Source: Escherichia phage OSYSP. From it: DNA of 64,000 nucleotides. Positions within the stretch are counted from its first letter, which is position 1. Each line of letters begins with the position of its first letter. The stretch lies in the sequence record MF402939; one strand, written 5' to 3'. A program made the translations under genes and the position numbers. This document shows positions 4,852 to 59,662 of this stretch, one piece after another. Under the pieces are notes generated by a model that was given only the letters and a program-made list of their open reading frames with translations, did no database searches and was not told the origin of the DNA.

Positions 4852-4865
4852 CTACTTAAAAATTT

Positions 4866-4900: not shown

Positions 4901-4954
4901 CTCATAGTTTGAAAGAACTATTCTGTTTAATTCTTAATTAAGGAAATATAAAAT

Positions 4955-5365: not shown

Positions 5366-5401
5366 TTTTAGATAAATCCACCAACAAAAGGAACTATAGC
5401 T

Positions 5402-5698
5402 ATGACTAAAGCTGAAATTATTGCACAGTGCGAAAAATTTGGTGAGTTTTATCTTCATTACGAGAAACTTCGTCAGAAAGGAACCACGTATCTTCAGGGT
5501 ACAATGGAATTTGATCCGGCCCAAGATAAATATCTGGCTGAGCGTATTAAACGCGAACGTATTCGTAAAGCGAAAGATGATGAAATCCTTGTCTTCTCTC
5601 GTACTAATGATAGCTTCCGTTTTATTCCTGTCGAGAAAGTTCGTCGTGTGACTAGCCTCCAATCAGAGTTAGATCGTGCTTCTCCAGTAGGCCGATAA
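5402..5698 (+). CDS. Hypothetical basic protein (98 aa)
   Basis: ORF track; terminator immediately downstream. Confidence 0.55.
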   Translation: MTKAEIIAQCEKFGEFYLHYEKLRQKGTTYLQGTMEFDPAQDKYLAERIKRERIRKAKDDEILVFSRTNDSFRFIPVEKVRRVTSLQSELDRASPVGR

Positions 5699-5708
5699 GA
5701 AAACAATT

Positions 5709-5731
5709 AGCCCCTATATGGGGCTTTTTGT
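5709..5731 (+). terminator. Rho-independent terminator (AGCCCC-TATAT-GGGGCT-TTTTT)
   Basis: Hairpin plus T-run. Confidence 0.7.
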
Positions 5732-5748
5732 GTATTTGGGATATGTAA

Positions 5749-6057
5749 ATGAGCGAACAGGTAAATCAAAACTATGAAGGACACGTTGATGACCAGTCCA
5801 TCATACTTTGGGAGAAGGAGGGGGAACAAGTAAGATTAACAGTATCTGAATTTCGTGGGAATCTATACATGGGTATTCGTTACTGGCTTCTTGATATTAA
5901 TGATGAGTGGTTTCCAACGAAATCTGGCTTCTCTTTTCCTTACACCCTAGAAACAACATCACAGCTTTTCTATGCGTTTACACAGATTCTTAGCGAATCT
6001 GAGGTTTTACATGAAGTACAGAAACGAGCTGAAGAACTCAAAGCCAAGAATGCCTAG
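5749..6057 (+). CDS. Hypothetical protein (102 aa)
   Basis: ORF track. Confidence 0.5.
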   Translation: MSEQVNQNYEGHVDDQSIILWEKEGEQVRLTVSEFRGNLYMGIRYWLLDINDEWFPTKSGFSFPYTLETTSQLFYAFTQILSESEVLHEVQKRAEELKAKNA

Positions 6058-6071
6058 TTCTTGGCTTTTTC
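6043..6071 (+). terminator. Rho-independent terminator (GCCAAGAA ... TTCTTGGC + TTTTTC)
   Basis: Hairpin plus T-run overlapping the stop codon. Confidence 0.65.
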
Positions 6072-6082
6072 TTTATAAATGT

Positions 6083-6125
6083 ATTTGCTTTCAACTCAGT
6101 TTTGTTATATAATATTTATATAAAT
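6083..6125 (+). promoter_or_regulatory. Early promoter with ATAAATT leader
   Basis: TTGCTT ... TATAAT consensus. Confidence 0.6.
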
Positions 6126-6144
6126 TAATGAGAGATATAAATAA

Positions 6145-7116
6145 ATGACTAATGTAAAAGAATTTATTAAACGCTGTCAAGAAGCATATTATCAAGGCAT
6201 GTCTTTAATCTCTGATGAGGAGTATGATCGCCTGGTAAAACGCTTCCCGTTAGAGGAAGAGATCGGGCCTAAGGGTGATATTCCACATCTATATCGTATG
6301 TATTCTTTACAGAAAGTTTACTATAACCGTGGAGATAAACCACCATTCAATCCTTTAGGTCAGGTGGAAACCGATAAGTTAGATGGTTGTGCAATTTCTC
6401 TGCTATATATTAATGGCGAATTTGTTCAAGCACTAACTCGTGGTAATGGTATTCTGGGGAATGATGTCACAAGCAACGTAAGATTGCTGAACATTCCTAA
6501 AAAGATTTCCCAAAAAGTACCTACTCAAATCACTGGTGAAGTTCTAATTACAAAAGAAGTAGAAAATAAACGTAACTTTGCCTCTGGTGCTATTAACCTC
6601 AAAGATAGCGATGCTTTCGTACAACGCATTGGAGAAGGCGGTTTAATCTTTGTTGCTTATGGTATCCAGTGTTCTGCTGAATCTGTAGGTATTACAGAAG
6701 CATATTTAAAAGATATGCTTTGGCTAGAGAATGAGAACTTCTTAACAGTCGTTAATGTGCGTTCCTTTTTTAAATGGATTCCGACGGACGGTAAAGTTGT
6801 TCGTATTAATGACAACAACAAATTCTTCCGCGAAGGCTGGACTAATAAATTCCCTCGTGGAGCATTCGCTATTAAAGAGGATGAAGAAGGCGAGATTACA
6901 ACTCTTACTAAAGTTGAATGGCAGGTAGGGGCTTCTGGTAAAGTAACTCCAGTTGGTTATTTCGAACCGGTAATTATTGATGATGCTACGATTGTTAAAG
7001 CGACTCTTAATAACGTTGATTATATTAACTCTCTCGATCTAGAGATCGGTTGCCAGATTCGAGTGATTCGTGCTGGTGGTGTAATCCCGTGCATAGTAGA
7101 GCGAGTATATGATTAA
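6145..7116 (+). CDS. NAD-dependent DNA ligase, N-terminal subunit (adenylation plus OB domains)
   Basis: KxDG adenylation motif (ETDKLDGCAISLLY) and LigA-like architecture in the translation. Confidence 0.8.
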   Translation: MTNVKEFIKRCQEAYYQGMSLISDEEYDRLVKRFPLEEEIGPKGDIPHLYRMYSLQKVYYNRGDKPPFNPLGQVETDKLDGCAISLLYINGEFVQALTRGNGILGNDVTSNVRLLNIPKKISQKVPTQITGEVLITKEVENKRNFASGAINLKDSDAFVQRIGEGGLIFVAYGIQCSAESVGITEAYLKDMLWLENENFLTVVNVRSFFKWIPTDGKVVRINDNNKFFREGWTNKFPRGAFAIKEDEEGEITTLTKVEWQVGASGKVTPVGYFEPVIIDDATIVKATLNNVDYINSLDLEIGCQIRVIRAGGVIPCIVERVYD

Positions 7117-7256
7117 TACATAACCCTTTGCTACCCATCTACCATATCGGAATTATAAAGTGGTTATTGACATTTTCGCCGCTTAGGTATATACTATTAT
7201 CATTCAGTTGAGGGATAGAAAGTTATGGCGAGGGTAAGCAAAGTTAGTTAAAATTG

Positions 7257-7300
7257 TAGTTGCTAAATGCTTAAATACTTGCTATAATATTTATATAAAT
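7257..7300 (+). promoter_or_regulatory. Early promoter sitting between the two ligase ORFs
   Basis: TTGCTA ... TATAAT plus ATAAATTGATAAGGAAG leader. Confidence 0.55.
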
Positions 7301-7318
7301 TGATAAGGAAGAAATTTG

Positions 7319-8095
7319 ATGAAAATCGAAATTCCAACACAATGTCCCTCTTGTGGTTCTAAGCTAGATCTTGTCAACGGACAATTATTCTGTCGTAATA
7401 AGTCCAACTGTCCAGCGCAATCAAGTAAGTTAATTGAGAACTTCTGTACAAAAATGAAGTTAAAGGGCTTTGGCCCGAAAACTATTGAAAAGCTGGAGCT
7501 GACTAAGATTTCAGAACTATTTTACCTAACCGAAGAAGATTTGGTTAGAGCCGTGGGTAGCAAGGTTGCCGCTAAGTTAATTAGCGAATTAAATACTAAA
7601 GTTCGTGGAGACATTGACTTTGGTTCAGTTCTCGGTTCTTTAGGAATCCCTCTAATTGGAGAGGTTGCAGCAAAGAAATTGTCCCAAAATTGCACCAGTT
7701 TTCAAGATGTGAGAGCTGATGGCAAAGCTGGAGAAAACTATAAAGCCTGGCTAAATTCCCCACAAGGCAAGGATGTTATCGAATTACCGTGGAAATTCTC
7801 AAATGGTATTAAGGGTGCTAAAGCTGACATCATTACTGATGGTCTAGTAGCCCAACCAAACGGAATAACGGTGTGTATTACCGGATCTTTGCAAGATTTT
7901 GCAAATCGAACGGATGCAACAAACTATTTAGAAGGTCTAGGATACACGGTTAAGAAATCCGTTACCAAAGACGTCAAATACCTAATCTGTGAGGATGAAT
8001 CGAAGCGTTCTTCCTCATCTTATAAGAAAGCCGAAACGAATGGGATAGAAATCCTGTCGATTAAAGAACTATTGGAGAAAAATAATAATGTCTAA
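7319..8095 (+). CDS. NAD-dependent DNA ligase, C-terminal subunit (Zn finger, HhH, BRCT-like)
   Basis: Cys4 motif CPSCGS...CRNKSNCPAQ; C-terminal BRCT-like region (ITGSL...KYLICEDE). Confidence 0.75.
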   Translation: MKIEIPTQCPSCGSKLDLVNGQLFCRNKSNCPAQSSKLIENFCTKMKLKGFGPKTIEKLELTKISELFYLTEEDLVRAVGSKVAAKLISELNTKVRGDIDFGSVLGSLGIPLIGEVAAKKLSQNCTSFQDVRADGKAGENYKAWLNSPQGKDVIELPWKFSNGIKGAKADIITDGLVAQPNGITVCITGSLQDFANRTDATNYLEGLGYTVKKSVTKDVKYLICEDESKRSSSSYKKAETNGIEILSIKELLEKNNNV

Positions 8096-8855
8096 ACTGA
8101 ACTGGAACGTAGAAGGTGTAACCGAGTCTCTGAAAGCAAAAGCCACTGCTCTGGGTGTTGCTGTAATCTCTCAAGAACAAGTAGCTGCTATCGCTGCTGA
8201 ACTGGCTGCTGAAACTGGCAAAGACGTTACCGCTCGCTCTGTTGGCTCTAAGCTGCGTAAAGAAGGTTTCGAAGTACAGAAAGCTAACGAAGTACAGAAA
8301 TCTCCGTGGACTCCTGAGCAGGAAGCTGAACTGGTTGATTTCCTGAACGCTCATGCTGGTCAGTATACCTATGCTGAAATCGCTGCTGCTGTAGCTGGTG
8401 GTCAATTTGGTGCTAGGCAGGTACAGGGTAAGATCCTGAGTCTGGAAATGACCGCTTCTGTTAAACCAACTGAAAAAGCAGCTGCTGTTCGTTCCTTCAC
8501 TCCTGATGAAGAAACTGATTTTGTTAATCAGGTTGTTGCTGGTGCTACTATTGAAGCTATCGCTGCTCACTTCGGTCGTAATATCAAGCAGATCCGTGGT
8601 AAAGCTCTGAGCCTGCTTCGTGAAGGTCGTATCGCTGCTATGCCGGTACAGGAAACTTCAAGTGCTAAAACTCGTGAAGATCTGCTAGAAGGTCTGGATC
8701 TGGTTAACATGACCGTTGCTGAGATCGCTGAGAAAACTGGTAAGTCTGAGCGTGGTGTTAAATCTATGTTGTCTCGTCGTGGTCTGGTTGCTAAGGACTA
8801 TGATGGTGCCGCTAAGCGTGCTAAACTGGATGCAAAAGCTGCGGCTGCTGAATAA
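8088..8855 (+). CDS. Ala-rich protein with internally duplicated helical modules; possible DNA-binding regulator
   Basis: ORF track; repeated AIAA...G(K/R) modules in the translation. Confidence 0.5.
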   Translation: MSKLNWNVEGVTESLKAKATALGVAVISQEQVAAIAAELAAETGKDVTARSVGSKLRKEGFEVQKANEVQKSPWTPEQEAELVDFLNAHAGQYTYAEIAAAVAGGQFGARQVQGKILSLEMTASVKPTEKAAAVRSFTPDEETDFVNQVVAGATIEAIAAHFGRNIKQIRGKALSLLREGRIAAMPVQETSSAKTREDLLEGLDLVNMTVAEIAEKTGKSERGVKSMLSRRGLVAKDYDGAAKRAKLDAKAAAAE

Positions 8856-8871
8856 TCTGGTAAATTAAACC

Positions 8872-8905
8872 TAAGGGGAGGGGGCTATGCTCCTTCCCCT
8901 TTTTG
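8872..8905 (+). terminator. Rho-independent terminator (AAGGGGA ... TCCCCTT + TTTT)
   Basis: Hairpin plus T-run. Confidence 0.7.
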
Positions 8906-8937
8906 CATTTAGAAGGCACGAAAGCGTGCAAAGGAGA

Positions 8938-10410
8938 ATGACCTTGTTTAACGTGCAAGCTGTAGTGTTGAAGATGCTTCTAGCTTCCGAACAGAAGCAA
9001 ATAGCATTGGAAACATTCTCAAAACTGCATAAAGATCATTTTAATGACGCTTTCTCCTCAATTTACCAAGCCGTCCAGAATTATTATAAAAAATATAACA
9101 CAATGCCGTCCATTGACGCACTGATGCTTGAGGCTAATAGGAACGCCCGCCTTTCTCAAGCTCTAGTCGTTTTAGCTAACACTCAAATTCCAGAAGTTAG
9201 CATGGAACAGGCACTTGAAGTCCTAGAGGCCGAGTATACACAGGATTTATTCCTGAAGCTTCTAGAAACAGACGTGCTTCAAGATTTAACAATGCTGGAT
9301 CAGGGAGAAATTCTTAACCGAGTTGCCTCCCTTCACTTAAAATTAGAAGAGAAAGTAACGAATACTGGAAAAGTATTCAACGCAGATAATATGCGTATTT
9401 TCCAGAGAGAAGAAGATACCAAACTGAACTTAATCGCTCTTGGTATTTGTAATGAGTTCGACGCTCAAATTGGTTTAGCTCGCACAGAAACGTTACTGCT
9501 TGGTGGTTGGCGTGGTACTGGTAAATCCATTATCTGTTCAAACATACAGGTTCAGCAATATTTGAATGGGGATATTGCTCCATACTTCTCAATTGAGATG
9601 AAAGAACATGAAGTATTTAGACGTAATCTAGCCATGTTAGCTGGTGTATCAGCACTAGCAATGCGTAATAATACTCTAGAAGGTGCAGCTCTGTTGAGAT
9701 TAGCCAGAACTAGAGCTAGGATGTTTAACGGTGGTGAAGAGCTCTTCGATAACTTCGTTAAACAGTATACAATGGCTAAGATGAGTGATTTCTACGACAT
9801 GGAGAGTAAGCTAATAGAAGGGTATGAGCTACATACTCCTATGATTATTGTTTATGACCCTGAGCTGTCTATTACAACAGTTGACGTAGAATTAAATAAA
9901 TTAGTTGCTAGATATGGGGATAAAGTTACAGTAGCTTTACTGGACTATATTAACCAAACCCGACTTCCAGACTCTAAAACCATTGATATGTATGACTGGA
10001 AAGAACAGATGGTTGTTAGCTCGTCTTTCAAATCTATCTGCCAGAAACATAACGTGGCTGGTGTAGCTCCTTACCAGATTGATCAAGATGGTAGAACACG
10101 TATGTCAAAAGGGATTCTTGATTCCGCAGACATGGCTGCTAATCTTAATGCTGCAAAAGCTGATAATGGTCAAGGTGCTATTATGTTTGACTTCGTTAAG
10201 ACTCGTTCTTCTGATAGCGTGAAGTTTATGCCTAAAATGAACTGGGAAACCCTGCGGATGGATAACACTACCAACCTAGCAATGGAAGATATATCTCAAA
10301 TGGAAGCTGAGTTCGTTATCCCTATTGAGAAGGATAAGCCGGCTCAATCTAAACGTGCTAAGAAAGACAAAGCTGAAAATTCAACAGGTGAACAGGCCAG
10401 CGATATATGA
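8938..10410 (+). CDS. Putative DnaB-like/RecA-fold replicative helicase
   Basis: Walker A GWRGTGKS; AAGGAG Shine-Dalgarno before ATG at 8938; lies directly upstream of primase. Confidence 0.55.
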   Translation: MTLFNVQAVVLKMLLASEQKQIALETFSKLHKDHFNDAFSSIYQAVQNYYKKYNTMPSIDALMLEANRNARLSQALVVLANTQIPEVSMEQALEVLEAEYTQDLFLKLLETDVLQDLTMLDQGEILNRVASLHLKLEEKVTNTGKVFNADNMRIFQREEDTKLNLIALGICNEFDAQIGLARTETLLLGGWRGTGKSIICSNIQVQQYLNGDIAPYFSIEMKEHEVFRRNLAMLAGVSALAMRNNTLEGAALLRLARTRARMFNGGEELFDNFVKQYTMAKMSDFYDMESKLIEGYELHTPMIIVYDPELSITTVDVELNKLVARYGDKVTVALLDYINQTRLPDSKTIDMYDWKEQMVVSSSFKSICQKHNVAGVAPYQIDQDGRTRMSKGILDSADMAANLNAAKADNGQGAIMFDFVKTRSSDSVKFMPKMNWETLRMDNTTNLAMEDISQMEAEFVIPIEKDKPAQSKRAKKDKAENSTGEQASDI

Positions 10411-45770: not shown

Positions 45771-47558
45771 TTAGGTAAGGCGTTGAACTGTTACTCTTAA
45801 TCTCGGTAGGAAAATAGCTGCAGCCTCATCAGCGTGAATAATTACGCCCAATTCAGCATTACCATTTCCTAGATTTTTAATAGTATAAATATATCCGTTT
45901 CTTCTAAATGTTAACTCATCAGGTCTACTTGCCCAAGTTTGAGTATAGCTGTATGCAGTAGTGGAGTGATAAGGGACTAAGTATCCAGGAGGTAAGGTTA
46001 ATATTTGATGGAATATTCCATCACCTTCCGTGTAACTATGCTGTCTTCTTCCTTGTACTTGCCAAGCAACACCACCATATGTGCGTATAGCTCCTCCTGC
46101 GGTATTAATATTCCCCATGATAACTTCAGTAGTTAATATTACTGTTGCGTTAGCGTTAGGCAATCCTAATCCTATGGTGGCCAAAGCTCTATAGTAGTTA
46201 CCTGCTCCAGGATATGTTGGAGTTATATCATCGCCAACGTAAGTGCTAGCAACATTATTAGGAAATAGTCTTAAGGGTACAGTACTAGGACTCCACACAG
46301 CTCCATGCTCATTACCTATAGTGTTATTACTTGAGTTTACGTACCATTGCTTACCCGCTCCGAATTTGTAAATACTAATTTGAGACTTAGCCCCTCCATA
46401 ATCTACGGGAGACCATAAAGATCCATTACTAGATCCTACAATTTCACAGCGCGCAGTAGTATCCCCGAAGGCTCCAGTGTACGCTGCGTTATTTCCAATG
46501 TACTCCATATCTGGCCTATAGCCTAAGTTACCAAAAGCATTTTGGTTGATAAACTTATATCCAGTATTTGGTAAACTAACCCCTTTTATAGTAAAATTAG
46601 ATGGAGTTATAAGTATATCTGACCCAGTAAATGGATTACCGGATACGCCCATATTACCATTAGAGTACCTTAGATTAAGTACATACCAAATAACTTTGGT
46701 AGGTGTAATATTATAACCATCCTGCACATATACTTTCTTAGCGGCCTGTGCTGCTAGATTAGATGTTGAACCTTTACATATATAAACCTTATCAGGGTAA
46801 GTAGGAGATTGGTACAATAAGTTAACATTATCGGGTACTGTGCCTTTTTTACCTACGTAACTTCGTATATTAGAGTTACAAACGTAAAAACAATTATGCC
46901 CTCTATGGGCGGCCCCTATAGGAGCTTGCCAGTTAGGATGCCAGTAGTCAGCATTACCACCGTCTATAGGTACTGTAGACGCTCCCGCTGGAAATCCTGC
47001 TAAAGTCCATGCCCTACCTATAGCCTCACCAGCATATGCTCCTCCCGGCCTATATAAATTAAACCCGGAGGCTTGAGATATAGTACCTCCTGTACCTTGC
47101 CTAGCAATTGATTCTTCATGGCCTAAACCAGAGTTATAAATATAGGTGCCATGTGCTAAACTATTACCTGATGCAAAAGCTGACGTAAGACCTACTTCTG
47201 CACCTGCCCTACCAATAGGCGGATCTTCAAAAAATGTAGTAAATTGACCAACTTGAGATTGAGTACCATTAAGAAAAGCCCTATGAGTACCATTAATCTC
47301 AATAGCAGTTAGTATAACTCTACCTGGGTCATTGGATTTAATATTTATTATGTCAGAAGGCATCTGACATACAAAAAACCCATTTCCGGCATTACCTAGC
47401 CCAGCCTCGTAAGTACCATCAACTAGGACAAATGGCATATCACTATGAAAAATACTATTGGCATTTGGACTATAGTGACGATTAATGTCACCCCCAGATT
47501 CAGTATTTAAAGATAGTACGGTCTTACCATCGCTATACTTTCCAGCGAAAAAACCCAT
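45771..47558 (-). CDS. Receptor-binding protein (pb5/Oad-like, 595 aa)
   Basis: Position after terminase and divergent to the lipoprotein gene, as in T5-like phages; Gly/Asn/Tyr-rich. Confidence 0.65.
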
Positions 47559-47583
47559 ATAATCTCCTATTATAAAAATGTAT

Positions 47584-47625
47584 TTGCTTTTATCCCTCTA
47601 TTTTGCTATAATAGACTCATAAATT
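47584..47625 (+). promoter_or_regulatory. Strong early-type promoter for the lipoprotein gene
   Basis: TTGCTT - 17 bp - TATAAT followed by CATAAATTAGAAATGGAGAG leader. Confidence 0.65.
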
Positions 47626-47643
47626 AGAAATGGAGAGATAAAT

Positions 47644-47910
47644 ATGAAAAAGTTTGTGATTGCACTAGTTGCCGCAGTTATGTTGTCTGGTTGTGCACCT
47701 GCCCCCAAACCATTTTGTACGGGATTTGTAAAATCTTTTGGCGGTGCGGGAGAGGAGCATTACGGCCTCAAGGTTCAAAAAGTTCGTATTAAGGGAGATC
47801 GCTTTCCAGTAGTACAGCTCCGTACTAAGTTTGGGTGGTGGGATCTCAGTCAGTTTGACCTTAAATACGGTGATTGTAAATTTAAACTAGAGCAATCTAA
47901 CTACCTGTAA
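47644..47910 (+). CDS. llp: Lytic-conversion lipoprotein (Llp-like receptor-blocking lipoprotein, 88 aa)
   Basis: Signal peptide with lipobox LSGC; divergent from the receptor-binding protein gene. Confidence 0.75.
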   Translation: MKKFVIALVAAVMLSGCAPAPKPFCTGFVKSFGGAGEEHYGLKVQKVRIKGDRFPVVQLRTKFGWWDLSQFDLKYGDCKFKLEQSNYL

Positions 47911-48751: not shown

Positions 48752-48854
48752 TTTGACTTTTGCCAATTTCTTTGGATTACGTACGCGTGGGTGTGTCCAG
48801 TGGCCCCCCAGATGAGAATGAGTCTCATTACCGCCTGGTACTTAGCAGGCTAAT

Positions 48855-48887
48855 AGTCCCGGCATGTTATCATTACACACCGGGACT
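48855..48887. other. Stem-loop (AGTCCCGG ... CCGGGACT) next to the ATGAGAATGAGTCTCAT and TTAGCAGGCTAA motifs
   Basis: Inverted repeat read from the sequence. Confidence 0.4.
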
Positions 48888-48903
48888 ATTTCAACTTTAA
48901 TTA

Positions 48904-49680
48904 CTACGCAACTTTTAATTTCTCAATATATTGTTGCGGGCTGCAACTATATTCTGCGCGTTCTTCTTCGGTCATACCTTCCCAACATAATTGCAGGCGG
49001 TCGGCTAGGAACTGATAATCATTATCATCCTCAAGAGATTCATCGATAAAGGTTTCACCTATCAATGTAACCCCAATCGATAGAATATCGTTAACGGCTT
49101 GTGCGTCCAGCGTTTTAAATCCGTATGATGCCGCCGCTGATAGCACGCCTTTATGATCATCAATCATCGTGAAATCAGCGTTCGGATATAATTGTTTAAA
49201 TAACTCAAAGTAATGGCTTTTATAAATAGCGTCTTTGCTGTGGTATATTTCGCTAACTTTATCAGCCTCAAAATATTTGTGTAGTGTATCGCGGGAAAAT
49301 ACACGGATATTACTATCCCCACGCCCTCGCAATCCTTGTTTACGCAAATAATAATAATCCGACTTGCTCATCAGTCGAGCGGTGCAAATAATGTTTAATG
49401 TATTTGCGTCATTCATGCACTGGCGCATATATGTAACAAGGGGCAATAAAGTATCTTGCATTATTAAATCATGTTTGCAGGCTTCATTTTTATACTTATT
49501 TAAATCTAAATTGCCCTCGCTATCAAAGCAAGGCGCTACACGATGGAAAGAATTAATGATAGTGCCGTCCAGATCCCAAATCATGACGCGGGAAATATGC
49601 GGGAAATTACGGGTAATATTCATTTTAACTTGATTCATTTTGTTACGTTCTCCATTAAAGGGATTTAGTTTATCCAGCAT
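48904..49680 (-). CDS. dmp: HAD-family 5'-deoxyribonucleotidase (Dmp-like); true start possibly at 49638
   Basis: HAD motif I (IWDLDGTI); position next to the A1-like gene. Confidence 0.6.
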   Translation of the reverse strand: MLDKLNPFNGERNKMNQVKMNITRNFPHISRVMIWDLDGTIINSFHRVAPCFDSEGNLDLNKYKNEACKHDLIMQDTLLPLVTYMRQCMNDANTLNIICTARLMSKSDYYYLRKQGLRGRGDSNIRVFSRDTLHKYFEADKVSEIYHSKDAIYKSHYFELFKQLYPNADFTMIDDHKGVLSAAASYGFKTLDAQAVNDILSIGVTLIGETFIDESLEDDNDYQFLADRLQLCWEGMTEEERAEYSCSPQQYIEKLKVA

Positions 49681-49718
49681 TGCCCGCTATTTATCAGCGG
49701 GCAATAATAAATCAACTA

Positions 49719-50111
49719 TTAAAGACCATAAGCCAACGCATCAGCGATAAAACTAATATCTTCACCTGATACGCTGGAACGAATCCCCGCACAAGTATAT
49801 ACTTTTGCGCTGATCAATTGATCATCGAGGCAAGCGGGGCAAGGCGCGACAACTGCAAAGGCTAGGCCGGATTTTACGGCGTCGATGATAATCGTTTCTT
49901 GTTTCACAGTATCAACATAAACACCTTTTGCTTTAATATGGCTGGTTAGTTTACCTTGCATATATGCAAAGGTAGTAACCTGCAAAGCGTCATTAAAATC
50001 TAATAGGTCATCAATAACGTGCCCCGCCTCGACGTGGTAACGTTCACCATTAGAATAAACCAGAACAATTGAGGACTGAGCGCGATCGAATGGAATATTT
50101 TGCTTTTTCAT
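49719..50111 (-). CDS. Hypothetical pre-early protein (130 aa)
   Basis: ORF track. Confidence 0.5.
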   Translation of the reverse strand: MKKQNIPFDRAQSSIVLVYSNGERYHVEAGHVIDDLLDFNDALQVTTFAYMQGKLTSHIKAKGVYVDTVKQETIIIDAVKSGLAFAVVAPCPACLDDQLISAKVYTCAGIRSSVSGEDISFIADALAYGL

Positions 50112-50149
50112 ATTTATAAAACTCCAATTAGTTTAATAATGGATTTAAT

Positions 50150-50407
50150 TTATTTGATAATAATCTGCATCTGGTACGGCGTTAATTCACCGTTTACGGG
50201 TAAATTATTATCGCTCAGCCACTCATAAAAAGCGTCATCGTCATCAAAAGGAACAATATCGTTATCACGGGAATCGACGGAAATAATACCATCCGTATTA
50301 GTTTTGGCGGCTAGGATAGGCCCGAAGCTGTAAACTTTATCAGATTCCATTTCATCCGGTGAAATGAATACTTTTTCGTCTAATGTTTTGGGAAGAGTAA
50401 CTTTCAT
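50150..50407 (-). CDS. Small strongly acidic protein (85 aa); DNA-mimic / anti-defence candidate
   Basis: Large excess of Asp/Glu over Lys/Arg, including a DDDD run. Confidence 0.45.
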   Translation of the reverse strand: MKVTLPKTLDEKVFISPDEMESDKVYSFGPILAAKTNTDGIISVDSRDNDIVPFDDDDAFYEWLSDNNLPVNGELTPYQMQIIIK

Positions 50408-50462
50408 TTAATTTAGCTCCTATAATAGCGGCTATATTTCAAGCCGCTAGGGTATTAATTAT

Positions 50463-52127
50463 TTACGCGAAAAATTTACCGTTTTTAAAGTCGATCAAAG
50501 TGCGCTGACCGTTTGCATAGGTAATAACATGCGTTTGCGTCCAGCTTGACGCGCCAACGTTGTAACCCATGTCCAGACTACCAGCTACGCCAGCGGTATA
50601 TACCCCGCCGTAAATGCTTGCCGTATGAGTATGCCCCGTGTTTAATTTGCCCAATTTCTTAAACTGTTTAGGATTGCCACGGCTGCCGTTAATGCCATTG
50701 TGACCGTGTACGCCGCACTCGATGCCTGCAATTTTAAATGATTGGTCAGTTGTTAGGAAAATGGCGTTAAATTCACAACCTGCAACCTTACGCAGCGCAT
50801 AATCAAGCACGTTGAAAGTATCGTCATGATCACCGATTGCCGCGTAAATTGCAGCATTTAGGCGGTGATATAGTTCCGCGTTTGCGGGATCGTCTTTAAT
50901 GTTAGCATTACGATCATCAAGCCAACGGGATAGCGCTAAATCGTGGTTTGATTCCACGATGATTGTTTGAGAAAAATCGCGCTCCATTGACTCCAGCACG
51001 CGCCCCGTATCGATGAGATCATCCAGAACCTTATCACGTCCGGCGGCGTATTGTTTTGCTAGGAATACACCCGAAGCGCGGTTGTGATGGTTGCGGGATG
51101 TAAAATCATGCACGTCATGAATAAACTGATATTTAGGCTTGAGAATATCAAGCAAGCTATTTTCGCCAGCCCATGACGCAACGGCGCAATCGTCATCTAA
51201 TTTTTCGGCGTGAATATCGCCATATTGCAAGCCTAAAACATGCCCCGATGTTTCATAACATCCGGCGGGAGTGGCGCAAATATTCAAATCGTAAAACACG
51301 CCGCTTTCGTCCATCGTTTCAAGCTGGCGAACAAAAAATTCTCCGTCTTCGTCAAACTCAACAACAAGCGCACCGAAATTATGCAGCGCCTCGGCCTTTT
51401 GTCCTGCTTTCTGCTGGATGTAATTTTTTAGGGTTGCCGTTCCAGTTGAATACATACGACGCACTACTTCACCTTTTAAAGCTGGCACGCTTTCGGCGGT
51501 AATTTTAGCGTGACCAATTGCCAGACCTTCCAGATTAAGCGCCGTTGCAGTTTCAGCGAATCCAGAAAGCGGATAATCTGCGGTTGGCAAAACGTTAATT
51601 TCAGCCATGAAAGCAAAACGGCGGTTATTTAAAAACACGTTTTTATTGCAGATATATTTGTCAAATGCGGAATCATATTTTATTCCTTCTGCACCCTCGC
51701 CATTTTGAAAACCGTTTTTGTTATAAATAAACTTGCTAACCAGCAAATCAGCGCCGATATATTTAGCAAATTGCTCCAGTGAGGCTAAAAAGTTTTTATG
51801 CGGGAAAGTATTATTCTGAATCGACGTAATAATAAAGCGTTTACCCTGCTTTACTTCCCATTGCTCAACCGTGCTAGAAACAATCCCCGCCGCTTCTGGA
51901 CGCTCATCGTTTTTAATGGCTTTTGCTACTTTCGCCGCTTTCGGTTTAGCTGGTTTATTTGCTTCCAACCAGTCGCAGATAGCGGTCGAGTGTTTTGTTG
52001 TATCGTAGACCGCTTTTGATATATCGTCGCAGACCTCCAGTTTAGTAGCGCGCAGACGTTTACCATAGAAATTAAAGTCAGCGGCCATTTTCAGGATAAC
52101 GGTTTGTTTTTCTGCGGAAATAATCAT
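50463..52127 (-). CDS. A1: A1-like pre-early protein with metallophosphoesterase domain (554 aa)
   Basis: Phosphoesterase motifs (GDIH, SNHD, GHNG, GHTH) in the C-terminal half; size close to T5 A1; adjacent to the A2-like and dmp-like genes. Confidence 0.65.
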   Translation of the reverse strand: MIISAEKQTVILKMAADFNFYGKRLRATKLEVCDDISKAVYDTTKHSTAICDWLEANKPAKPKAAKVAKAIKNDERPEAAGIVSSTVEQWEVKQGKRFIITSIQNNTFPHKNFLASLEQFAKYIGADLLVSKFIYNKNGFQNGEGAEGIKYDSAFDKYICNKNVFLNNRRFAFMAEINVLPTADYPLSGFAETATALNLEGLAIGHAKITAESVPALKGEVVRRMYSTGTATLKNYIQQKAGQKAEALHNFGALVVEFDEDGEFFVRQLETMDESGVFYDLNICATPAGCYETSGHVLGLQYGDIHAEKLDDDCAVASWAGENSLLDILKPKYQFIHDVHDFTSRNHHNRASGVFLAKQYAAGRDKVLDDLIDTGRVLESMERDFSQTIIVESNHDLALSRWLDDRNANIKDDPANAELYHRLNAAIYAAIGDHDDTFNVLDYALRKVAGCEFNAIFLTTDQSFKIAGIECGVHGHNGINGSRGNPKQFKKLGKLNTGHTHTASIYGGVYTAGVAGSLDMGYNVGASSWTQTHVITYANGQRTLIDFKNGKFFA

Positions 52128-52223
52128 ATTAATAAAACTCCATTAAAGGGATTAAAAACGTTTGTTATTGGCAAATATTGCCAAATATAACGCCTTGAAT
52201 AATAGGCGTTATAATTTGCAACA

Positions 52224-52421
52224 TTAATTTAAAGGCATAAGGCTAGAACTAACACCACAAGCAACGGCGGCAATAAAACAAATCAGACCTAAACGCTTTG
52301 CCAATTTAGACTTACGTTTAAAATAATATGAGTCTAAATCATTTTGAAAATAAGCGAATAATAACGAGGCCGCCATAATAAATAAGCCTAGAATGAGGGA
52401 TTCAGTAGGGTAAAAGATCAT
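52224..52421 (-). CDS. Small two-helix membrane protein (65 aa)
   Basis: ORF track; two hydrophobic segments. Confidence 0.4.
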   Translation of the reverse strand: MIFYPTESLILGLFIMAASLLFAYFQNDLDSYYFKRKSKLAKRLGLICFIAAVACGVSSSLMPLN

Positions 52422-52477
52422 TTTAAAACTCCAGTCAAAGGGAAATTATAGTGGGGAATATTCCCCACTAATTAAAT

Positions 52478-52885
52478 TTATTCGCCTGCGGCTTGTTTTA
52501 CTTCATCGGCAACGCCTAACAGTTGCGCCACGGCGTCCAGTGTTTCAAGTTTTGCACTTTCCAGACTTGCCAGATCATCGGCGTCTTTGATAATGCCGGA
52601 ATCAATAGCATGTTTAGCGATAACGCGTACATAGTGAGCTTTGCGGATTGAGCTACCGCCGCCAACTTTGCGCGGCTTATCGCTTTTCTGATACGCTTTC
52701 GCGCTGGTCAATTTTGACCGAACGGATACGGGAGAAGCCGCGCCCACTGCTTTTGCAATCTCTTTTAAACCGTAGCTATTTGCGAAATCTAAACCGTTTT
52801 CATTGATTAACTGCTGATACATGGAAACGGCTTTTTGGGTGTTTTCTTCATTCCAAGCAAATTTTGCGGTTTTAACGTTAGTCAT
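52478..52885 (-). CDS. A2: A2-like pre-early DNA-binding protein (135 aa)
   Basis: Size and position next to the A1-like gene; basic segment. Confidence 0.5.
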   Translation of the reverse strand: MTNVKTAKFAWNEENTQKAVSMYQQLINENGLDFANSYGLKEIAKAVGAASPVSVRSKLTSAKAYQKSDKPRKVGGGSSIRKAHYVRVIAKHAIDSGIIKDADDLASLESAKLETLDAVAQLLGVADEVKQAAGE

Positions 52886-52983
52886 GGTAAAAACTCCTAT
52901 TAGTTTAATTTAAGGGATAAGATTAACATAGTGTTAATCATTATATTCCCCATATTTCAGAGGAATATAAAGTTAACACTAAA

Positions 52984-53235
52984 TTATAACACAGCTTCCC
53001 ATTTTTCGTTACGCTGTACAACCTTTACAACGTCGCCGGATTTAACGCGAACGCTAAAAACGGTTTTGCCGTTGTTACTACGTTCATTTTCAGCGTATAC
53101 CGCGTCGATTGTATCAAACGGCATAAGCGCCGCACCTTTAATACGTTCGGCTTTTCCGGTTAGTTCATCCGTTTTAGTAACGAAAGGAATAAAAACGGAT
53201 TGACCAATTTTAGGCGCGGTAATAACGTTTTTCAT
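52984..53235 (-). CDS. Hypothetical pre-early protein (83 aa)
   Basis: ORF track. Confidence 0.45.
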   Translation of the reverse strand: MKNVITAPKIGQSVFIPFVTKTDELTGKAERIKGAALMPFDTIDAVYAENERSNNGKTVFSVRVKSGDVVKVVQRNEKWEAVL

Positions 53236-53462
53236 AATATAAACTCCTAGTTATTTGGGGATTGTTCCGCATTACCTGCTAGAAAGTAGCAGGTAATAAG
53301 CAACAATCCGCTCACCGCTATAATCAATTTAAAGAACTCCATGCAGGCCGCTATATCCCAGTTAGGGGGCGGGACACATTATGGTAAGTGCCGACCGTCA
53401 GATTTTATCAAGTTATCGCTCTTATCGAACTGAGTACATCTTAAAGCCTATCGGCTAGGTTG

Positions 53463-53666
53463 TCAAACAATTTTTTGCAGTTTTTTATAATTCTCTTTCA
53501 AGTCAATCATAATATTTCGCCAGATCATTTCTAAACCTTGCTGGCGGCCTTTCTTGTACTGCGTGAATCGGTATTTTACCGATCTTTGCGCTACTGTCAA
53601 CAAATTTTTTGTTTTGCTGTCCAGTGCCTTGCTAGGTTTACCAGTGATCAATAAAGTTTGTTTCAT
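53463..53666 (-). CDS. Small basic protein (67 aa), possibly DNA-binding
   Basis: ORF track; Lys/Arg-rich. Confidence 0.4.
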   Translation of the reverse strand: MKQTLLITGKPSKALDSKTKNLLTVAQRSVKYRFTQYKKGRQQGLEMIWRNIMIDLKENYKKLQKIV

Positions 53667-55872: not shown

Positions 55873-56367
55873 ATGTCAGAAGAAAAATATGGCTTCTCAC
55901 TGGGAGAAGTGAGCACGGCTAAACACGATATGATCATTTTGGTCGATTGTCATACTGGCTATTGCGGAGAAGGCTGGACGGAGGAACATTTTGTTCCAGC
56001 TGGCTGTAATCTGGACGCTTTCGCTCAGGAAATGGCTGTTGATAATGCTTCTCGTTTCGGTAGCGATGGCTATGAAGACGAGGAAACTGGCGAATGGTAT
56101 GAAAATGAAAACGTATACGCTAGTCTTTATCATTATCAATTAAGTAAATCCGGCGCATATGTAAACGGCGGCGATCCTATTAATTCCATCATGAGATTAA
56201 TTATTAAACATGGTGGCGTCGAGATAATTGATAACAAAGCGGTAATATACGCAAACCGATTAAAACAGCTTGTTTATATTCCTGATAATACCCGATGGGA
56301 TGAATATGCTGTTTTGCATGACGAATTGAAACGATGTTTCAATATTGAATCCTTACAAGTAGTCTAA
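55873..56367 (+). CDS. Hypothetical acidic protein (about 164 aa, start at MSEEKYG)
   Basis: AGGAGG Shine-Dalgarno 6 nt before ATG at 55873. Confidence 0.55.
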   Translation: MSEEKYGFSLGEVSTAKHDMIILVDCHTGYCGEGWTEEHFVPAGCNLDAFAQEMAVDNASRFGSDGYEDEETGEWYENENVYASLYHYQLSKSGAYVNGGDPINSIMRLIIKHGGVEIIDNKAVIYANRLKQLVYIPDNTRWDEYAVLHDELKRCFNIESLQVV

Positions 56368-56901: not shown

Positions 56902-57114
56902 ATGATCCGCAACGTTTCTCTTGCTCGTTCGAAAGGCTTTAAGCTGGTGGACGTTAACACGTTCGAGCGTGAAGATTGTAAAATCGAATATGTAGCGCGG
57001 AATAAAAACGCCTTTCGTGTTACCGAGAAAAAATTCGATAAGCGCGGCAACGTGGTCGCTGAAACGGTTAAACATTTTGCCACCTTTTACGCTGCGTTTC
57101 GTGGGGTACTATGA
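56902..57114 (+). CDS. Hypothetical basic protein (70 aa)
   Basis: ORF track. Confidence 0.5.
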   Translation: MIRNVSLARSKGFKLVDVNTFEREDCKIEYVARNKNAFRVTEKKFDKRGNVVAETVKHFATFYAAFRGVL

Positions 57115-57236
57115 AAAGCGTTATCATTATTAGCCTTGCAATGGTTGGCGGTTTTACCGCCACCTTATTTAAAAATGATCCCCTTTTACTGGGGATTTTT
57201 ATGCTTTTATCTGGCTATCTGATTGGGAGGTTATAA
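57111..57236 (+). CDS. Unannotated hydrophobic micro-protein (41 aa, MKSVIIISLAMVGGFTATLFKNDPLLLGIFMLLSGYLIGRL)
   Basis: Hand translation; ATGA start/stop overlap with the upstream gene. Confidence 0.5.
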   Translation: MKSVIIISLAMVGGFTATLFKNDPLLLGIFMLLSGYLIGRL

Positions 57237-57237
57237 A

Positions 57238-57582
57238 ATGGTAATTTATGAAGGCAATCGTTTTGTTGCTAATTGCCGTCCTGCATTGCTAGCAAATTAC
57301 TTAAATCAGCTTTCACCAGCTTATAAGGGCGTTATTAATATTTATGAGGGCAAAGTGCATTATAAGGTTAATGCGGTCGTTGCCCGTGAACTAGCGTTTC
57401 AATTTTTGACCTTTGCATCTTGTGACGTTCAGGTTATGGGTGAGGCGTTAATTGCAGAAAATGAAGATGATTTTATTAACATTTTTCGCAAGATATGCAC
57501 CGAGCGCCTGATCATGAAAGGCGCTTATATTCAATCCACTGCGGATAGTATTGAAACAGCGTTTCGAAAGGTGGCGCAATGA
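57238..57582 (+). CDS. Hypothetical protein (about 114 aa, start at MVIYEG)
   Basis: GGGAGG Shine-Dalgarno before ATG at 57238. Confidence 0.5.
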   Translation: MVIYEGNRFVANCRPALLANYLNQLSPAYKGVINIYEGKVHYKVNAVVARELAFQFLTFASCDVQVMGEALIAENEDDFINIFRKICTERLIMKGAYIQSTADSIETAFRKVAQ

Positions 57583-57737
57583 AAAAGTTTTTAATAGCTG
57601 GCATGTTTCCGTTGTTGCCTTATGTAATTTGCTGGGCTTTATATGCTCATGGTGCTAGTGTTCCCGGTGTGGCTTCATTTGGTGTATCGGCGGGCTTTCT
57701 AGCTGGACTATTGGCAAGCGTATATTTACGCAAATAA
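57579..57737 (+). CDS. Unannotated hydrophobic micro-protein (52 aa, MKKFLIAGMFPLLPYVICWALYAHGASVPGVASFGVSAGFLAGLLASVYLRK)
   Basis: Hand translation; ATGA overlap with the upstream gene. Confidence 0.5.
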   Translation: MKKFLIAGMFPLLPYVICWALYAHGASVPGVASFGVSAGFLAGLLASVYLRK

Positions 57738-57756: not shown

Positions 57757-57951
57757 ATGAGCAATAAAATTGTTGTAACCAAAATCAGTACAATGGTTGA
57801 TGTTTTTTACGTGCCCGATACGCCGGAGAATCGGCGAGCGGTCGAGCGTGGCGAGTATGATAAAGTGATTTATGATCACGATGGTTACTATCAACATTTG
57901 GTGGATTCCTACGGGGAGGAGGAAAAAATCACGCATCGACTACCAGACTAA
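57757..57951 (+). CDS. Small acidic protein (64 aa)
   Basis: ORF track. Confidence 0.5.
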   Translation: MSNKIVVTKISTMVDVFYVPDTPENRRAVERGEYDKVIYDHDGYYQHLVDSYGEEEKITHRLPD

Positions 57952-57992
57952 TAATCACGGGGCGCAACTACCAGGGAGTGCCCCCAATTCTC

Positions 57993-58087
57993 AAATGAGA
58001 ATCATTCTCATTTGACTGCGCCCGCGATGGTTAGCCTGCTAATGATTAGGGTGTTACGTGTCGCCTTGTGTGATCGTTAGCAGGCTA
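57993..58087. repeat. Palindromic elements: AAATGAGAATCATTCTCATTT and a 12-bp inverted pair TTAGCCTGCTAA / TTAGCAGGCTAA
   Basis: Read from the sequence; related motifs occur at 48812-48853. Confidence 0.7.
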
Positions 58088-58208
58088 ACTAATTTTTAAG
58101 CCTCCTCCAATTTTGCCCTTGTTTTAGTACCCCCACCAAAATTAAACGCGTTAGAATGCGATCTAGGACGTTTTAGCGGTATACTAGAATTATTCACTAC
58201 ATAGGAAT

Positions 58209-58250
58209 ACTGTATATTTATACAGTAGGATATCCTGTGGATAAGTCTGT
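58209..58250 (-). repeat. Right arm of the 42-bp inverted repeat (reverse orientation), includes DnaA box TGTGGATAA at 58236; a second box at 58309
   Basis: Hand-computed reverse complement matches 54508-54549. Confidence 0.8.
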
Positions 58251-58334
58251 TAATAACGCCTCAAAATGGCTAGGATTCTGTCAAATCAAATCGTGCTGTT
58301 AATAAGTCTGTGGATAACTTAAATAACAGTGTTT

Positions 58335-58510
58335 CTCACTTCCATTCTTAAATGAGAATCATTATCATTCGCAGTCCACTGTCTAACCGATAATCATTTC
58401 CTTTCTTAAATGAGAATCATTTCACTTTTTGAATAGTTCTCATTTCCTTTCTTAAATGAGAATAATTATCATTCGCATTCCACTTCTTAAATGATAATGA
58501 TTCTCATTCA
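58335..58510. repeat. Cluster of at least 4 copies of TTCTTAAATGAGAAT(C/A)ATT in direct and inverted orientation
   Basis: Read from the sequence. Confidence 0.75.
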
Positions 58511-58515
58511 AAGTC

Positions 58516-58533
58516 GCAGGGCAATTGCCCTGC
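58516..58533. repeat. Perfect 18-bp palindrome GCAGGGCAATTGCCCTGC
   Basis: Self-complementary by inspection. Confidence 0.85.
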
Positions 58534-58538
58534 GCTTT

Positions 58539-59141
58539 TGTGCAAATCCGACATTGCTCCACGGGTGTTACGTGCGGGCATGTATGTGCGAATCCGACAA
58601 TTTTTGGTAGTGTGCGAATCCGACCCTAAAAACTTTTGTGATGTGCGAATCCAACAATGAATTTTCCCAAAAACTCCAGCAATCACGAACTGCGTTCGAA
58701 TCCTGTGGGATATGTGCAAATCCGACACGGTTTTTCTAGGATTAAGATGTGCAAATCCGACAAGATTTTTGTGACTTCGATGAGAGGGTGTGTGATTGTA
58801 TAGGTTTGAGGAGAAGATGAGAGAGCGAGAAAAGTTTGGGAGGCTAGAAGGATGCGGGCGCAGGATTGGTGCGGAGCACCTGATTTGCGGGGATTTTGGG
58901 GAAGAGTTGAGATAATTTGGGAAGATTTGAGATAGGTGCAGAAAAAGTAAAATTTTATTAGCAAAATGGGGCAAAATAGCTTGACAAGTGAAAATTTCTG
59001 TGGCTCTAAAAACTCAGGCAATCATGGGCCTTCGGCCCGAAATAATGCTGCCATTTTCAAGAGATTATATGTTCCTAAAAACTTAGGCGTTTGTGCAAAT
59101 CCGACCATAAATTTCTAGGAACACAATGTACAAATCCGACA
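58539..59141 (+). repeat. Iteron-like array: 8 same-orientation copies of 15-bp TGTGC(G/A)AATCCGAC(A/C) at 58539, 58585, 58611, 58642, 58713, 58748, 59092, 59127
   Basis: Direct repeats located by hand; copy 4 carries CCAACA and copy 8 TGTACA variants. Confidence 0.8.
58790..58945. repeat. Purine-rich (G/A) strand-asymmetric tract with short GAGATA / TTGGG repeats
   Basis: Read from the sequence. Confidence 0.6.
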
Positions 59142-59169
59142 GTAATTTCTGGAAATGTGTTTTCAAAAA

Positions 59170-59240
59170 ATGTCTCCTAGAAATAACCGCCCTCCCTATA
59201 ACCGCCCTGTATTAACCGCCCTGTATTAACCGCCTATTGC
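59170..59240. repeat. Short tandem repeats (A/T)TAACCGCC(CT), 4 copies, flanked by TTCTAGGAA / TTCCTAGAA inverted motifs
   Basis: Read from the sequence. Confidence 0.65.
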
Positions 59241-59662
59241 TAGAGTTTCTAGGAATATGAAAACCGCCTGAGTTGACTAGAGAAACAGATTTAAAGTTTA
59301 ATGTAAACTCTAGAGTTAGTGCTCAACTATTCCTAGAAACTTAGGAGTCTAGAAGAAAGTGTTGTGCCATCCTAGCAGATGAGCGGCAACAGGTGTATCA
59401 TCTTGAACACAAATATTGCCTTTAAATATTTTTAGTTATTTAAAAGTAAATATACCCCCATTTCATGAGAGCTTACTCGTGGGGCGCGTGAGTATTACGG
59501 AAGACTTAGTAATTAGATCTATACTCGTGCTGTCGCAACGTATAGACGTAATACTAAGTGTAATAATCATCGCCCCTAGAGTTCAAAACAAGAGTTGTTT
59601 TTAATCTATGAGATTATTATAACATGTGCCGCAATGAGTTGTCAAGAAGATTTTGTTAATGT

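What the first reader, a model, noticed from the sequence alone, without database searches (positions are those of the whole stretch)
50150..50407. Strongly acidic small pre-early protein: DNA-mimic / anti-restriction candidate
The 85-aa product is dominated by Asp/Glu (including DDDD) with few basic residues, and sits in the first-injected region between dmp-like and A1-like genes. T5-like phages are known to resist restriction through uncharacterised pre-early functions; small acidic proteins (Ocr/Ugi-like) are the usual mechanism. The acidic ORFs 55873..56367 and 57757..57951 are further candidates.
Basis: inference. Interest (0 to 1): 0.6.

Follow-up and report, generated by a model that had tools for sequence, protein, structure and literature searches.

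The report
Acidic accessory pre-early phage gene cassette
This is a real, very acidic 85-residue gene of a T5-like phage, sitting as a swappable cassette next to the essential A1 gene; its function is unknown, and it cannot be what makes T5-like phages insensitive to restriction, because resistant relatives lack it and a sensitive relative carries it.

Summary
Window 50150-50407 (-) encodes an 85-aa protein with pI 4.05, 17 acidic and 7 basic residues, and a DDDD run. It is the most acidic of 76 crudely called ORFs in the window. It lies in the first-injected leftward pre-early operon of a Tequintavirus, between A1 and the T5.002 homologue.

It is a real gene: dN/dS is 0.03-0.08, it has an AGGAG ribosome-binding site, and it matches phrog_8297 (unknown function). 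It is a distant homologue of T5.003 (hhalign 95.9%). The family is confined to T5-like phages, with only about 15 small relatives among 1.84 billion cluster representatives. The confident AlphaFold model (pLDDT 87.5) is a small beta-meander plus helix with no significant match to any solved structure.

The gene is an accessory cassette. In related phages the same slot is empty, or holds T5.003, a 96-aa gene, tandem pairs or a homing endonuclease, all within identical flanks.

The anti-restriction reading is weakened. The restriction-insensitive phages BF23 and DT57C have an empty slot. The restriction-sensitive Bas29 carries a family member. T5.003 is dispensable and non-toxic.

My best guess is inference only: a strain-specific protein inhibitor of a variable host or defence factor. 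Interest is modest.

The parts
50150..50407 (-). 85-aa acidic accessory pre-early gene (phrog_8297 family; distant paralogue of T5.003)
   Evidence: ORF and translation. pI 4.05, net charge -10. phrog_8297 E 2.4e-50. dN/dS 0.03-0.08. AF2 pLDDT 87.5. hhalign to the T5.003 family 95.9%.
50417..50421 (-). Shine-Dalgarno AGGAG, 9 nt upstream of the ATG; part of the conserved 5' cassette junction
   Evidence: Read from the sequence. The junction is identical in T5 upstream of the non-alignable T5.003.
50427..50448 (-). Hairpin AGCGGCT-TGAAATAT-AGCCGCT just after the A1 stop codon; marks the upstream edge of the slot
   Evidence: Sequence. A compositionally similar hairpin is kept in phages whose slot is empty (BF23, DT57C, IMG/VR loci). 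It is not followed by a T-run, and the scan does not call it a terminator.
50141..50152 (-). 3' cassette junction: stop codon TAA followed by ATTAAATCC; repeats the TAAATTAA motif found just before the start codon
   Evidence: DNA alignment of occupied and empty slots. The window and T5 share this flank around unrelated ORF bodies.
50463..52127 (-). A1 (554 aa), the essential pre-early DNA-transfer and host-DNA-degradation protein; upstream neighbour in the operon
   Evidence: Annotation of 92-94% identical phage records. The role of A1 is taken from bioRxiv 10.64898/2026.04.02.716235.
49719..50111 (-). T5.002 homologue (130 aa, function unknown); downstream neighbour
   Evidence: 93% amino-acid identity to T5.002. 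phrog_4576.
48904..49680 (-). dmp, deoxynucleoside-5'-monophosphatase; last gene of the leftward pre-early operon
   Evidence: Annotated as dmp in related records. Relatives annotate a 244-aa form that starts at an internal ATG.
53438..53600 (-). Two strong sigma-70-like promoter matches (TTGACA-16-TAAAAT and TTGACA-17-TAAGAT); they lie in the part of the window equivalent to where T5's mapped leftward pre-early promoters P-H22 and P-D/E20 sit
   Evidence: Consensus scan and T5 annotation. No comparable promoter or terminator match lies between A1 and the 85-aa gene.

Best explanation
The gene encodes a small, compact, strongly acidic protein. It is made within the first minutes of infection from the leftward pre-early operon of a Tequintavirus.

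It is not part of the conserved T5 takeover machinery. It is an optional cassette in a recombination-prone slot between A1 and T5.002. Related phages fill that slot with a different member of the same superfamily (T5.003), with other small acidic ORFs, with tandem pairs or with a homing endonuclease, or they leave it empty.

The most likely mode of action is stoichiometric binding and neutralisation of a host protein that varies between strains. That target is most plausibly a nucleic-acid-handling or anti-phage defence component met during the pause between first- and second-step DNA transfer.

What is shown: the gene is real, acidity is conserved across the family, the gene sits in the pre-early operon, the cassette structure is as described, the gene is accessory and fast-diverging, and it resembles no characterised protein. 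What is inferred: that the protein binds something, what the target is, and that the role is counter-defence.
For: Real gene under purifying selection: dN/dS 0.03-0.08.

Acidity is conserved in every member of the 85-aa and T5.003 families, net -4 to -11, while the DDDD run is not conserved.

The AF2 model is confident and compact: four-strand meander, helix, final strand; pLDDT 87.5, pTM 0.75. No catalytic family matches it in Pfam, NCBIfam, PADLOC or PDB sequences.

The slot is variable. Among 27 IMG/VR genomes, 11 carry the 85-aa gene, 4 carry T5.003, 4 carry an HNH endonuclease and 8 are empty. Tandem pairs occur in C13, Eos, ECOP18, SelmaRatti, L046 and L047. The flanks are identical around non-alignable ORF bodies.

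The gene diverges much faster than its neighbours: 47-56% amino-acid identity between the two genera, against 92-93% for A1 and 90% for dmp. In L047 a member only 27% identical sits next to an A1 that is 98% identical.

The paralogue T5.003 is non-toxic when expressed and dispensable in the laboratory (PMC8201957; bioRxiv 10.64898/2026.04.02.716235). The authors of that preprint themselves suggest such genes may matter only in hosts with particular defences.

No promoter or terminator match separates the gene from A1. The 96-aa gene in the same slot of Bas33 is transcribed.
Against: There is no direct evidence of any binding partner or phenotype.

Neither fold nor sequence links it to any characterised anti-defence protein.

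Acidity is common among small early phage proteins and does not indicate a specific function.

Variable presence would also be expected of a neutral or selfish passenger at a recombination hotspot that is also used by a homing endonuclease.

The published host-range and defence phenotyping of BASEL T5-like phages shows no pattern that tracks carriers against non-carriers, although too few phages were tested to tell.
Confidence: 0.45

Rival explanations
1. One reading: an Ocr-, ArdA- or Ugi-like DNA mimic that blocks restriction enzymes, BREX or Ung, and so accounts for the restriction insensitivity of T5-like phages.
For: It is the most acidic ORF in the window. It is small and among the first genes expressed. 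Acidity is conserved across the family. DNA mimics share no common fold, so the lack of fold matches does not exclude mimicry. A narrow activity, for example against one type I family or BREX, has not been tested.
Against: BF23 and DT57C are restriction-insensitive but have an empty slot (PMC10644984). T5 lacks this gene.

The restriction-sensitive Bas29 carries a family member (PMC8594841, PMC13250531). Bas27 carries the T5.003 type and is restricted by EcoR124I (PMC10644984).

No similarity to Ocr, ArdA or Ugi was found. Net charge per residue (-0.12) is, from memory, lower than that of Ocr.

T5's Ung-directed function is T5.015, whose homologue is present in the window (PMC8201957).
Confidence: 0.12
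2. A modulator of the phage's own pre-early machinery. Examples: a partner or timer of A1 that protects phage DNA from the A1 nuclease or tunes shut-off, or the unidentified 11-kDa pre-early polypeptide that co-purifies with RNA polymerase together with A1.
For: In Markadamsvirinae it always lies directly downstream of A1 and is co-transcribed with it.

An 11-kDa pre-early protein of unknown gene co-purifies with RNAP and A1 (introduction of PMC7472727). T5.003 is 10.7 kDa by calculation.

How T5 DNA escapes A1 remains an open question (bioRxiv 10.64898/2026.04.02.716235).
Against: A1 is universal in Demerecviridae, yet the slot is empty in about 30% of sampled genomes, including BF23 and DT57C. 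No core A1 function can therefore depend on the gene.

The T5 mutant that lacks 003 still degrades host DNA and is viable (same preprint).

In more distant relatives the family member sits between the 002-like gene and dmp, not next to A1 (L087/L088).

Klimuk et al. did not find an 11-kDa band in their RNAP preparations (PMC7472727).
Confidence: 0.15
3. A passenger with little or no benefit to the phage: small ORFs that persist and shuffle because the A1/002 junction is a recombination and homing-endonuclease hotspot.
For: The same slot holds an HNH homing endonuclease in about 19 phage records. The flanks are identical around unrelated ORF bodies, and short direct repeats sit at both junctions. 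Absence is frequent. T5.003 has no laboratory phenotype (PMC8201957; bioRxiv 10.64898/2026.04.02.716235).
Against: Purifying selection is strong (dN/dS 0.03-0.08). Length, predicted fold and acidity are conserved down to 25-35% identity. The gene is retained in 181 phage records across two genera. Together these argue for a selected protein function.
Confidence: 0.13

Closest known systems
T5.003 (YP_006831.1), the pre-early gene of phage T5 in the same slot
   Same: Same position between A1 and T5.002, with identical flanking junctions. Similar size (92 aa) and acidity (net -7). Profile-profile homology: 95.9% probability, E 6e-9 over 75 columns. Also of unknown function.
   Different: BLASTP finds no similarity. 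It is a separate subfamily that can sit in tandem with the 85-aa gene, as in phage C13. It is rarer: 33 phage records against 181. T5.003 has been tested as non-toxic and dispensable; the 85-aa gene itself has not been tested.
Ocr (T7 gp0.3) and ArdA DNA-mimic anti-restriction proteins
   Same: Small, acidic, and expressed from the first DNA to enter the cell. A plausible analogy for how it might work.
   Different: No sequence or fold similarity. The predicted fold is a beta-meander plus one helix, whereas Ocr is (from memory) an all-helical elongated dimer. The charge density is lower. Presence does not track restriction insensitivity.
Ugi (PBS2), p56 and SAUGI uracil-DNA-glycosylase inhibitors
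   Same: Almost the same length and pI as Ugi (from memory, 84 aa and pI about 4.2), with a beta-sheet-plus-helix composition.
Accessory anti-defence loci of other phages, where variable small genes sit between conserved genes, often beside homing endonucleases
   Same: A hypervariable slot with conserved flanks, occupied by an endonuclease in some genomes. Fast divergence, dispensability and early expression.
   Different: No anti-defence activity has been shown for any occupant of this slot.

Membership tests
phrog_8297 / T5.003 superfamily (Markadamsvirinae slot proteins) | Full-length sequence match to the family profile | tested here: met
   phrog_8297 E 2.4e-50, residues 1-85 of 85. 24 homologues at 33-95% identity. 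hhalign to the T5.003 family 95.9%.
phrog_8297 / T5.003 superfamily (Markadamsvirinae slot proteins) | Location directly downstream of A1 and upstream of the T5.002 homologue | tested here: met
   This holds for the window, S116, PRF-SP13, Eos, C13, SuperGirl, 11 IMG/VR genomes, and the two distant members P0033 and P0036.
T5 pre-early (first-step-transfer) genes | Lies between the genome's left end (dmp) and the injection-stop-signal repeats, inside the leftward operon driven by the pre-early promoters | tested here: met
   Synteny with T5 coordinates 124-9157. Promoter-like sites at 53438-53600. Repeat-rich non-coding region at 57.98-59.35 kb. Transcription of this particular gene was not measured.
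Ocr/ArdA DNA-mimic anti-restriction proteins | Sequence or fold homology to Ocr or ArdA | tested here: not met
   [not shown]
Ocr/ArdA DNA-mimic anti-restriction proteins | Strong net negative charge | tested here: met
   Net -10 over 85 aa, pI 4.05, conserved across the family.
Ocr/ArdA DNA-mimic anti-restriction proteins | Surface carboxylates arranged like the phosphates of B-form DNA | not testable with these tools
   Model coordinates are not returned, so only secondary structure and pLDDT are available.
Ocr/ArdA DNA-mimic anti-restriction proteins | Presence of the gene goes with escape from restriction | tested here: not met
   BF23 and DT57C have an empty slot yet are insensitive (PMC10644984). 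Bas29 carries a member yet is sensitive (PMC8594841, PMC13250531).
Ocr/ArdA DNA-mimic anti-restriction proteins | Binds and inhibits type I R-M or BREX enzymes | not testable with these tools
   Requires biochemistry or in vivo restriction-alleviation assays.
Ugi-type Ung inhibitors | Ugi, p56 or SAUGI fold or sequence | tested here: not met
   [not shown]

The most novel reading that the evidence does not exclude
The A1/002 junction of T5-like phages is a dedicated, hypervariable counter-defence cassette site. The 85-aa/T5.003 superfamily is a previously unrecognised fold of small acidic inhibitor, and each subfamily neutralises a different strain-specific host defence or nucleic-acid enzyme during the first-step-transfer pause. 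A still more speculative variant is that the protein is the long-unidentified 11-kDa pre-early polypeptide that joins A1 on host RNA polymerase.
Probability: 0.3. Interest if true: 0.55.

Novelty: new member of a known kind. Interest (0 to 1): 0.3.

Why it matters
Two questions about T5-like phages remain open: how they protect their second-step DNA from restriction, and what most of their pre-early genes do. This analysis removes one attractive candidate, because the gene's distribution does not match restriction insensitivity. The search should therefore focus on genes shared by all Tequintaviruses but differing in Epseptimaviruses.

The analysis also defines a precise cassette slot with natural empty, single and double states. 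That makes a convenient system for gene-swap experiments, and for engineering T5-like therapeutic phages, to find what these small acidic proteins target.

Tried and rejected
- Pfam, NCBIfam and PADLOC scans of the target and the two other acidic ORFs gave nothing meaningful.
- The PDB sequence-profile search had no hit below E 0.1.
- Foldseek against viral models returned only uncharacterised proteins of T5-like phages. The afdb50 library was not available.
- The exhaustive HMM search of 1.84 billion representatives returned three long hits: a Calx-beta-like repeat protein, a PQQ-propeller kinase and a repeat protein. I rejected these as local beta-hairpin or repeat matches.
- I considered that the 96-aa, 82-aa (Eos60) and 80-aa slot ORFs belong to the same superfamily. 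hhalign shows only an N-terminal MKxxLP...GxVY motif (probabilities 8%, 31% and 2.5%), so homology is not established.
- T5.016, also 85 aa, is unrelated.
- I considered the hairpin after A1 as a terminator that would isolate the gene. It has no T-tract and the scan does not call it one.
- Literature searches found no paper that characterises this family. Davison 2015 and McCorquodale 1981 were not held.

Full report
**Source of the window.** The window comes from a T5-like phage. Bases 48800-53300 are 93.8% identical to Salmonella phage PMBT29 and to Escherichia phage vB_Eco_mar004NP2, a Tequintavirus. 462 phage records match the region. Against phage T5 (NC_005859), the minus strand from about 53.6 kb down to 48.9 kb reproduces the leftward pre-early operon of the first-step-transfer DNA. 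The gene order is T5.008, T5.007, A2, T5.005, A1, the slot, T5.002, dmp. A repeat-rich non-coding stretch at 57.98-59.35 kb corresponds to the region of the injection stop signal.

**The observation.** The ORF at 50150-50407 (-) is real and as described.
- It is 85 aa, with 12 Asp, 5 Glu, 6 Lys and 1 Arg, net charge -10, pI 4.05, and DDDD at residues 55-58.
- It is the most acidic of 76 crudely called ORFs in the window.
- An AGGAG lies 9 nt upstream of the ATG.
- Pairwise dN/dS against close relatives is 0.03-0.08, the same range as A1 and dmp. It is therefore a protein-coding gene under purifying selection.
- No promoter-like or terminator-like match separates it from A1. The strongest minus-strand promoter matches lie at 53438-53600, in the part of the window equivalent to where the mapped T5 pre-early promoters sit.
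- 'Dominated by Asp/Glu' is too strong, since acidic residues are 20% of the protein. The DDDD run is not conserved.
- The net negative charge is conserved in every relative: -4 to -11, pI 4.05-4.85.

**Family.** Pfam, NCBIfam and PADLOC give nothing. PHROGs places the protein in phrog_8297, function unknown (E 2.4e-50).

tblastn finds it in 181 phage records, all T5-like, at 35-99% identity. An exhaustive profile search of 1.84 billion cluster representatives gave only 18 hits. Fifteen are proteins of 67-94 aa. The other three are long repeat proteins, which I dismiss as local hairpin matches.

T5 itself has a different gene, T5.003, at this position. BLASTP sees no similarity between the two. 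Profile-profile comparison of the two families gives 95.9% probability, E 6e-9 over 75 columns. They are therefore distant paralogues in one superfamily restricted to Markadamsvirinae and near relatives.

**Structure.** AlphaFold2 with a 25-sequence alignment gives a confident model: pLDDT 87.5, pTM 0.75.
- The N-terminal tail has low confidence.
- Strands are at 25-28, 31-35, 41-45 and 50-54, a helix at 57-66 and a strand at 73-75.
- The DDDD run sits at the N-terminal cap of the helix.
- Invariant positions are mostly core hydrophobics (V25, Y26, F54, L64, plus the near-invariant W63). The rest are G73 and T76, plus the acidic residues D48 (invariant) and D45, E62 and D66 (nearly invariant).

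**The slot.** The most informative result is comparative. In 27 distinct IMG/VR genomes the space between the A1 stop codon and the T5.002 start codon has four states:

| Slot content | Genomes |
|---|---|
| 85-aa gene | 11 |
| T5.003 type | 4 |
| 169-aa HNH homing endonuclease | 4 |
| Empty | 8 |

Tandem pairs also occur:
- 85+92 in phage C13.
- 85+82 in Eos.
- 85+96 in ECOP18 and SelmaRatti.
- 91+96 and 80+85 in two metagenomic contigs whose A1 is 98% and 83% identical to the window's.

A DNA alignment shows that the window and T5 share identical junctions around ORF bodies that cannot be aligned.
- The 5' junction is hairpin, AGGAG, TAAATTAA, ATG.
- The 3' junction is TAA followed by ATTAAATCC.
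- The empty-slot phages BF23 and DT57C keep the hairpin and one copy of the TTAAATTAAT motif.

The gene also diverges far faster than its neighbours. Between the Tequintavirus and Epseptimavirus alleles it is 47-56% identical, against 92-93% for A1, 90% for dmp and 77-78% for T5.002. This is an accessory, exchangeable cassette, not a core takeover gene.

The other small slot ORFs (96, 82 and 80 aa) share only an N-terminal MKxxLP...GxVY motif with the family. Their homology is not established.

[quoted passage not shown] Epseptimaviruses (Bas26-29) are sensitive (PMC10644984 section 10; PMC8594841; PMC13250531).

| Phage | Slot content | R-M phenotype |
|---|---|---|
| BF23 | empty | insensitive |
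| DT57C | empty | insensitive |
| T5 | T5.003 only | insensitive |
| Bas29 (SuperGirl) | family member bas29_0199 | sensitive |
| Bas28 (TrudiRoth) | family member | sensitive (grouped with Bas26-29; Bas number assumed) |
| Bas27 (TrudiGerster) | T5.003 type | sensitive |

T5.003 was non-toxic in two independent expression screens and is dispensable for T5 growth (PMC8201957; bioRxiv 10.64898/2026.04.02.716235). The T5 activity directed at Ung belongs to T5.015, whose homologue lies at 57235-57582. A narrow activity against one particular system is not excluded.

**Interpretation.** I commit, at about 45%, to this reading: the protein is a stoichiometric binder and inhibitor of a host factor that differs between strains, most plausibly a defence or nucleic-acid-handling protein met during the pause after first-step transfer. 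The support is circumstantial:
- conserved acidity on a conserved compact fold with no catalytic signature;
- the earliest possible expression;
- accessory and rapidly diverging status;
- cassette exchange beside a homing-endonuclease site;
- absence of any laboratory phenotype for the paralogue.

The rivals are as follows.
- A modulator of A1 or of RNA polymerase, about 15%. An unassigned 11-kDa pre-early polypeptide co-purifies with RNAP and A1 (PMC7472727). However, the slot is empty in many phages that have A1.
- A nearly neutral passenger at a recombination hotspot, about 13%. Strong purifying selection argues against this.

**Novelty and interest.** The gene is already present in databases as a hypothetical protein, and its general kind, a small acidic accessory early phage protein, is familiar. 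Three things are new here:
- the link between the 85-aa family and T5.003;
- the definition of the cassette slot and its states;
- the comparative argument against a role in general restriction insensitivity.

Interest is modest at 0.3. It would rise to about 0.55 if the slot proved to be a dedicated counter-defence cassette site encoding a new inhibitor fold.

**Other acidic ORFs named in the finding.**
- 57757-57951 is simply the T5.017 homologue (89%).

Noticed in passing
[not shown]
   Followed up: partly
window 57757-57951 (+): The third 'acidic candidate' is the T5.017 homologue (89% identity). It is only mildly acidic (pI 5.0, net -5).
   Followed up: partly
window 50427-50448 (-): A 7-bp-stem hairpin (AGCGGCT/AGCCGCT) lies immediately after the A1 stop codon. 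A similar hairpin is kept in phages whose slot is empty, with compensating sequence changes (GGCGG..CCGCC). No T-tract follows it. Its role is unknown: RNA processing or stability, or a recombination landmark.
   Followed up: partly
loci L019, L022, L032, L036 (1970-2479); about 19 phage records, e.g. Salmonella phage LVR16A: In some T5-like phages a 169-aa HNH homing endonuclease occupies exactly the slot that holds the 85-aa gene here. This marks the A1/002 junction as a site of gene exchange.
   Followed up: partly
L047 973-1528; L046 346-893; HildyBeyeler MZ501074 106169-106456; SelmaRatti MZ501103 101941-102228: Further small acidic slot ORFs (96, 91 and 80 aa) occur singly or in tandem with the 85-aa gene. 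They share only the N-terminal MKxxLP...GxVY motif, perhaps because cassette exchange crosses over within the first 30 or so codons. The 96-aa gene of Bas33 (bas33_0183) is transcribed, according to the supplement of PMC13250531.
   Followed up: partly
window 57235-57582 (+): Homologue (91%) of T5.015, the Ung-dependent nickase. It is flanked by two small predicted membrane ORFs (57111-57236 and 57579-57737) that T5 lacks. T5.009, hegG and T5.016 are absent from this phage.
   Followed up: no
window 57980-59350: A dense field of direct and inverted repeats in non-coding DNA: six copies of TGTGCAAATCCGAC, six of TTAAATGAGAATCATT-type units, and DnaA-box-like CTGTGGATAAG. It corresponds to the region of the T5 injection stop signal.
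   Followed up: partly
window 45771-47910: A receptor-binding-protein-like ORF (595 aa, minus strand) and an 88-aa lipoprotein of the Llp/Cor type abut the dmp end of the pre-early region. The assembly therefore joins the right end of the unique region to a single collapsed copy of the terminal repeat.
   Followed up: no
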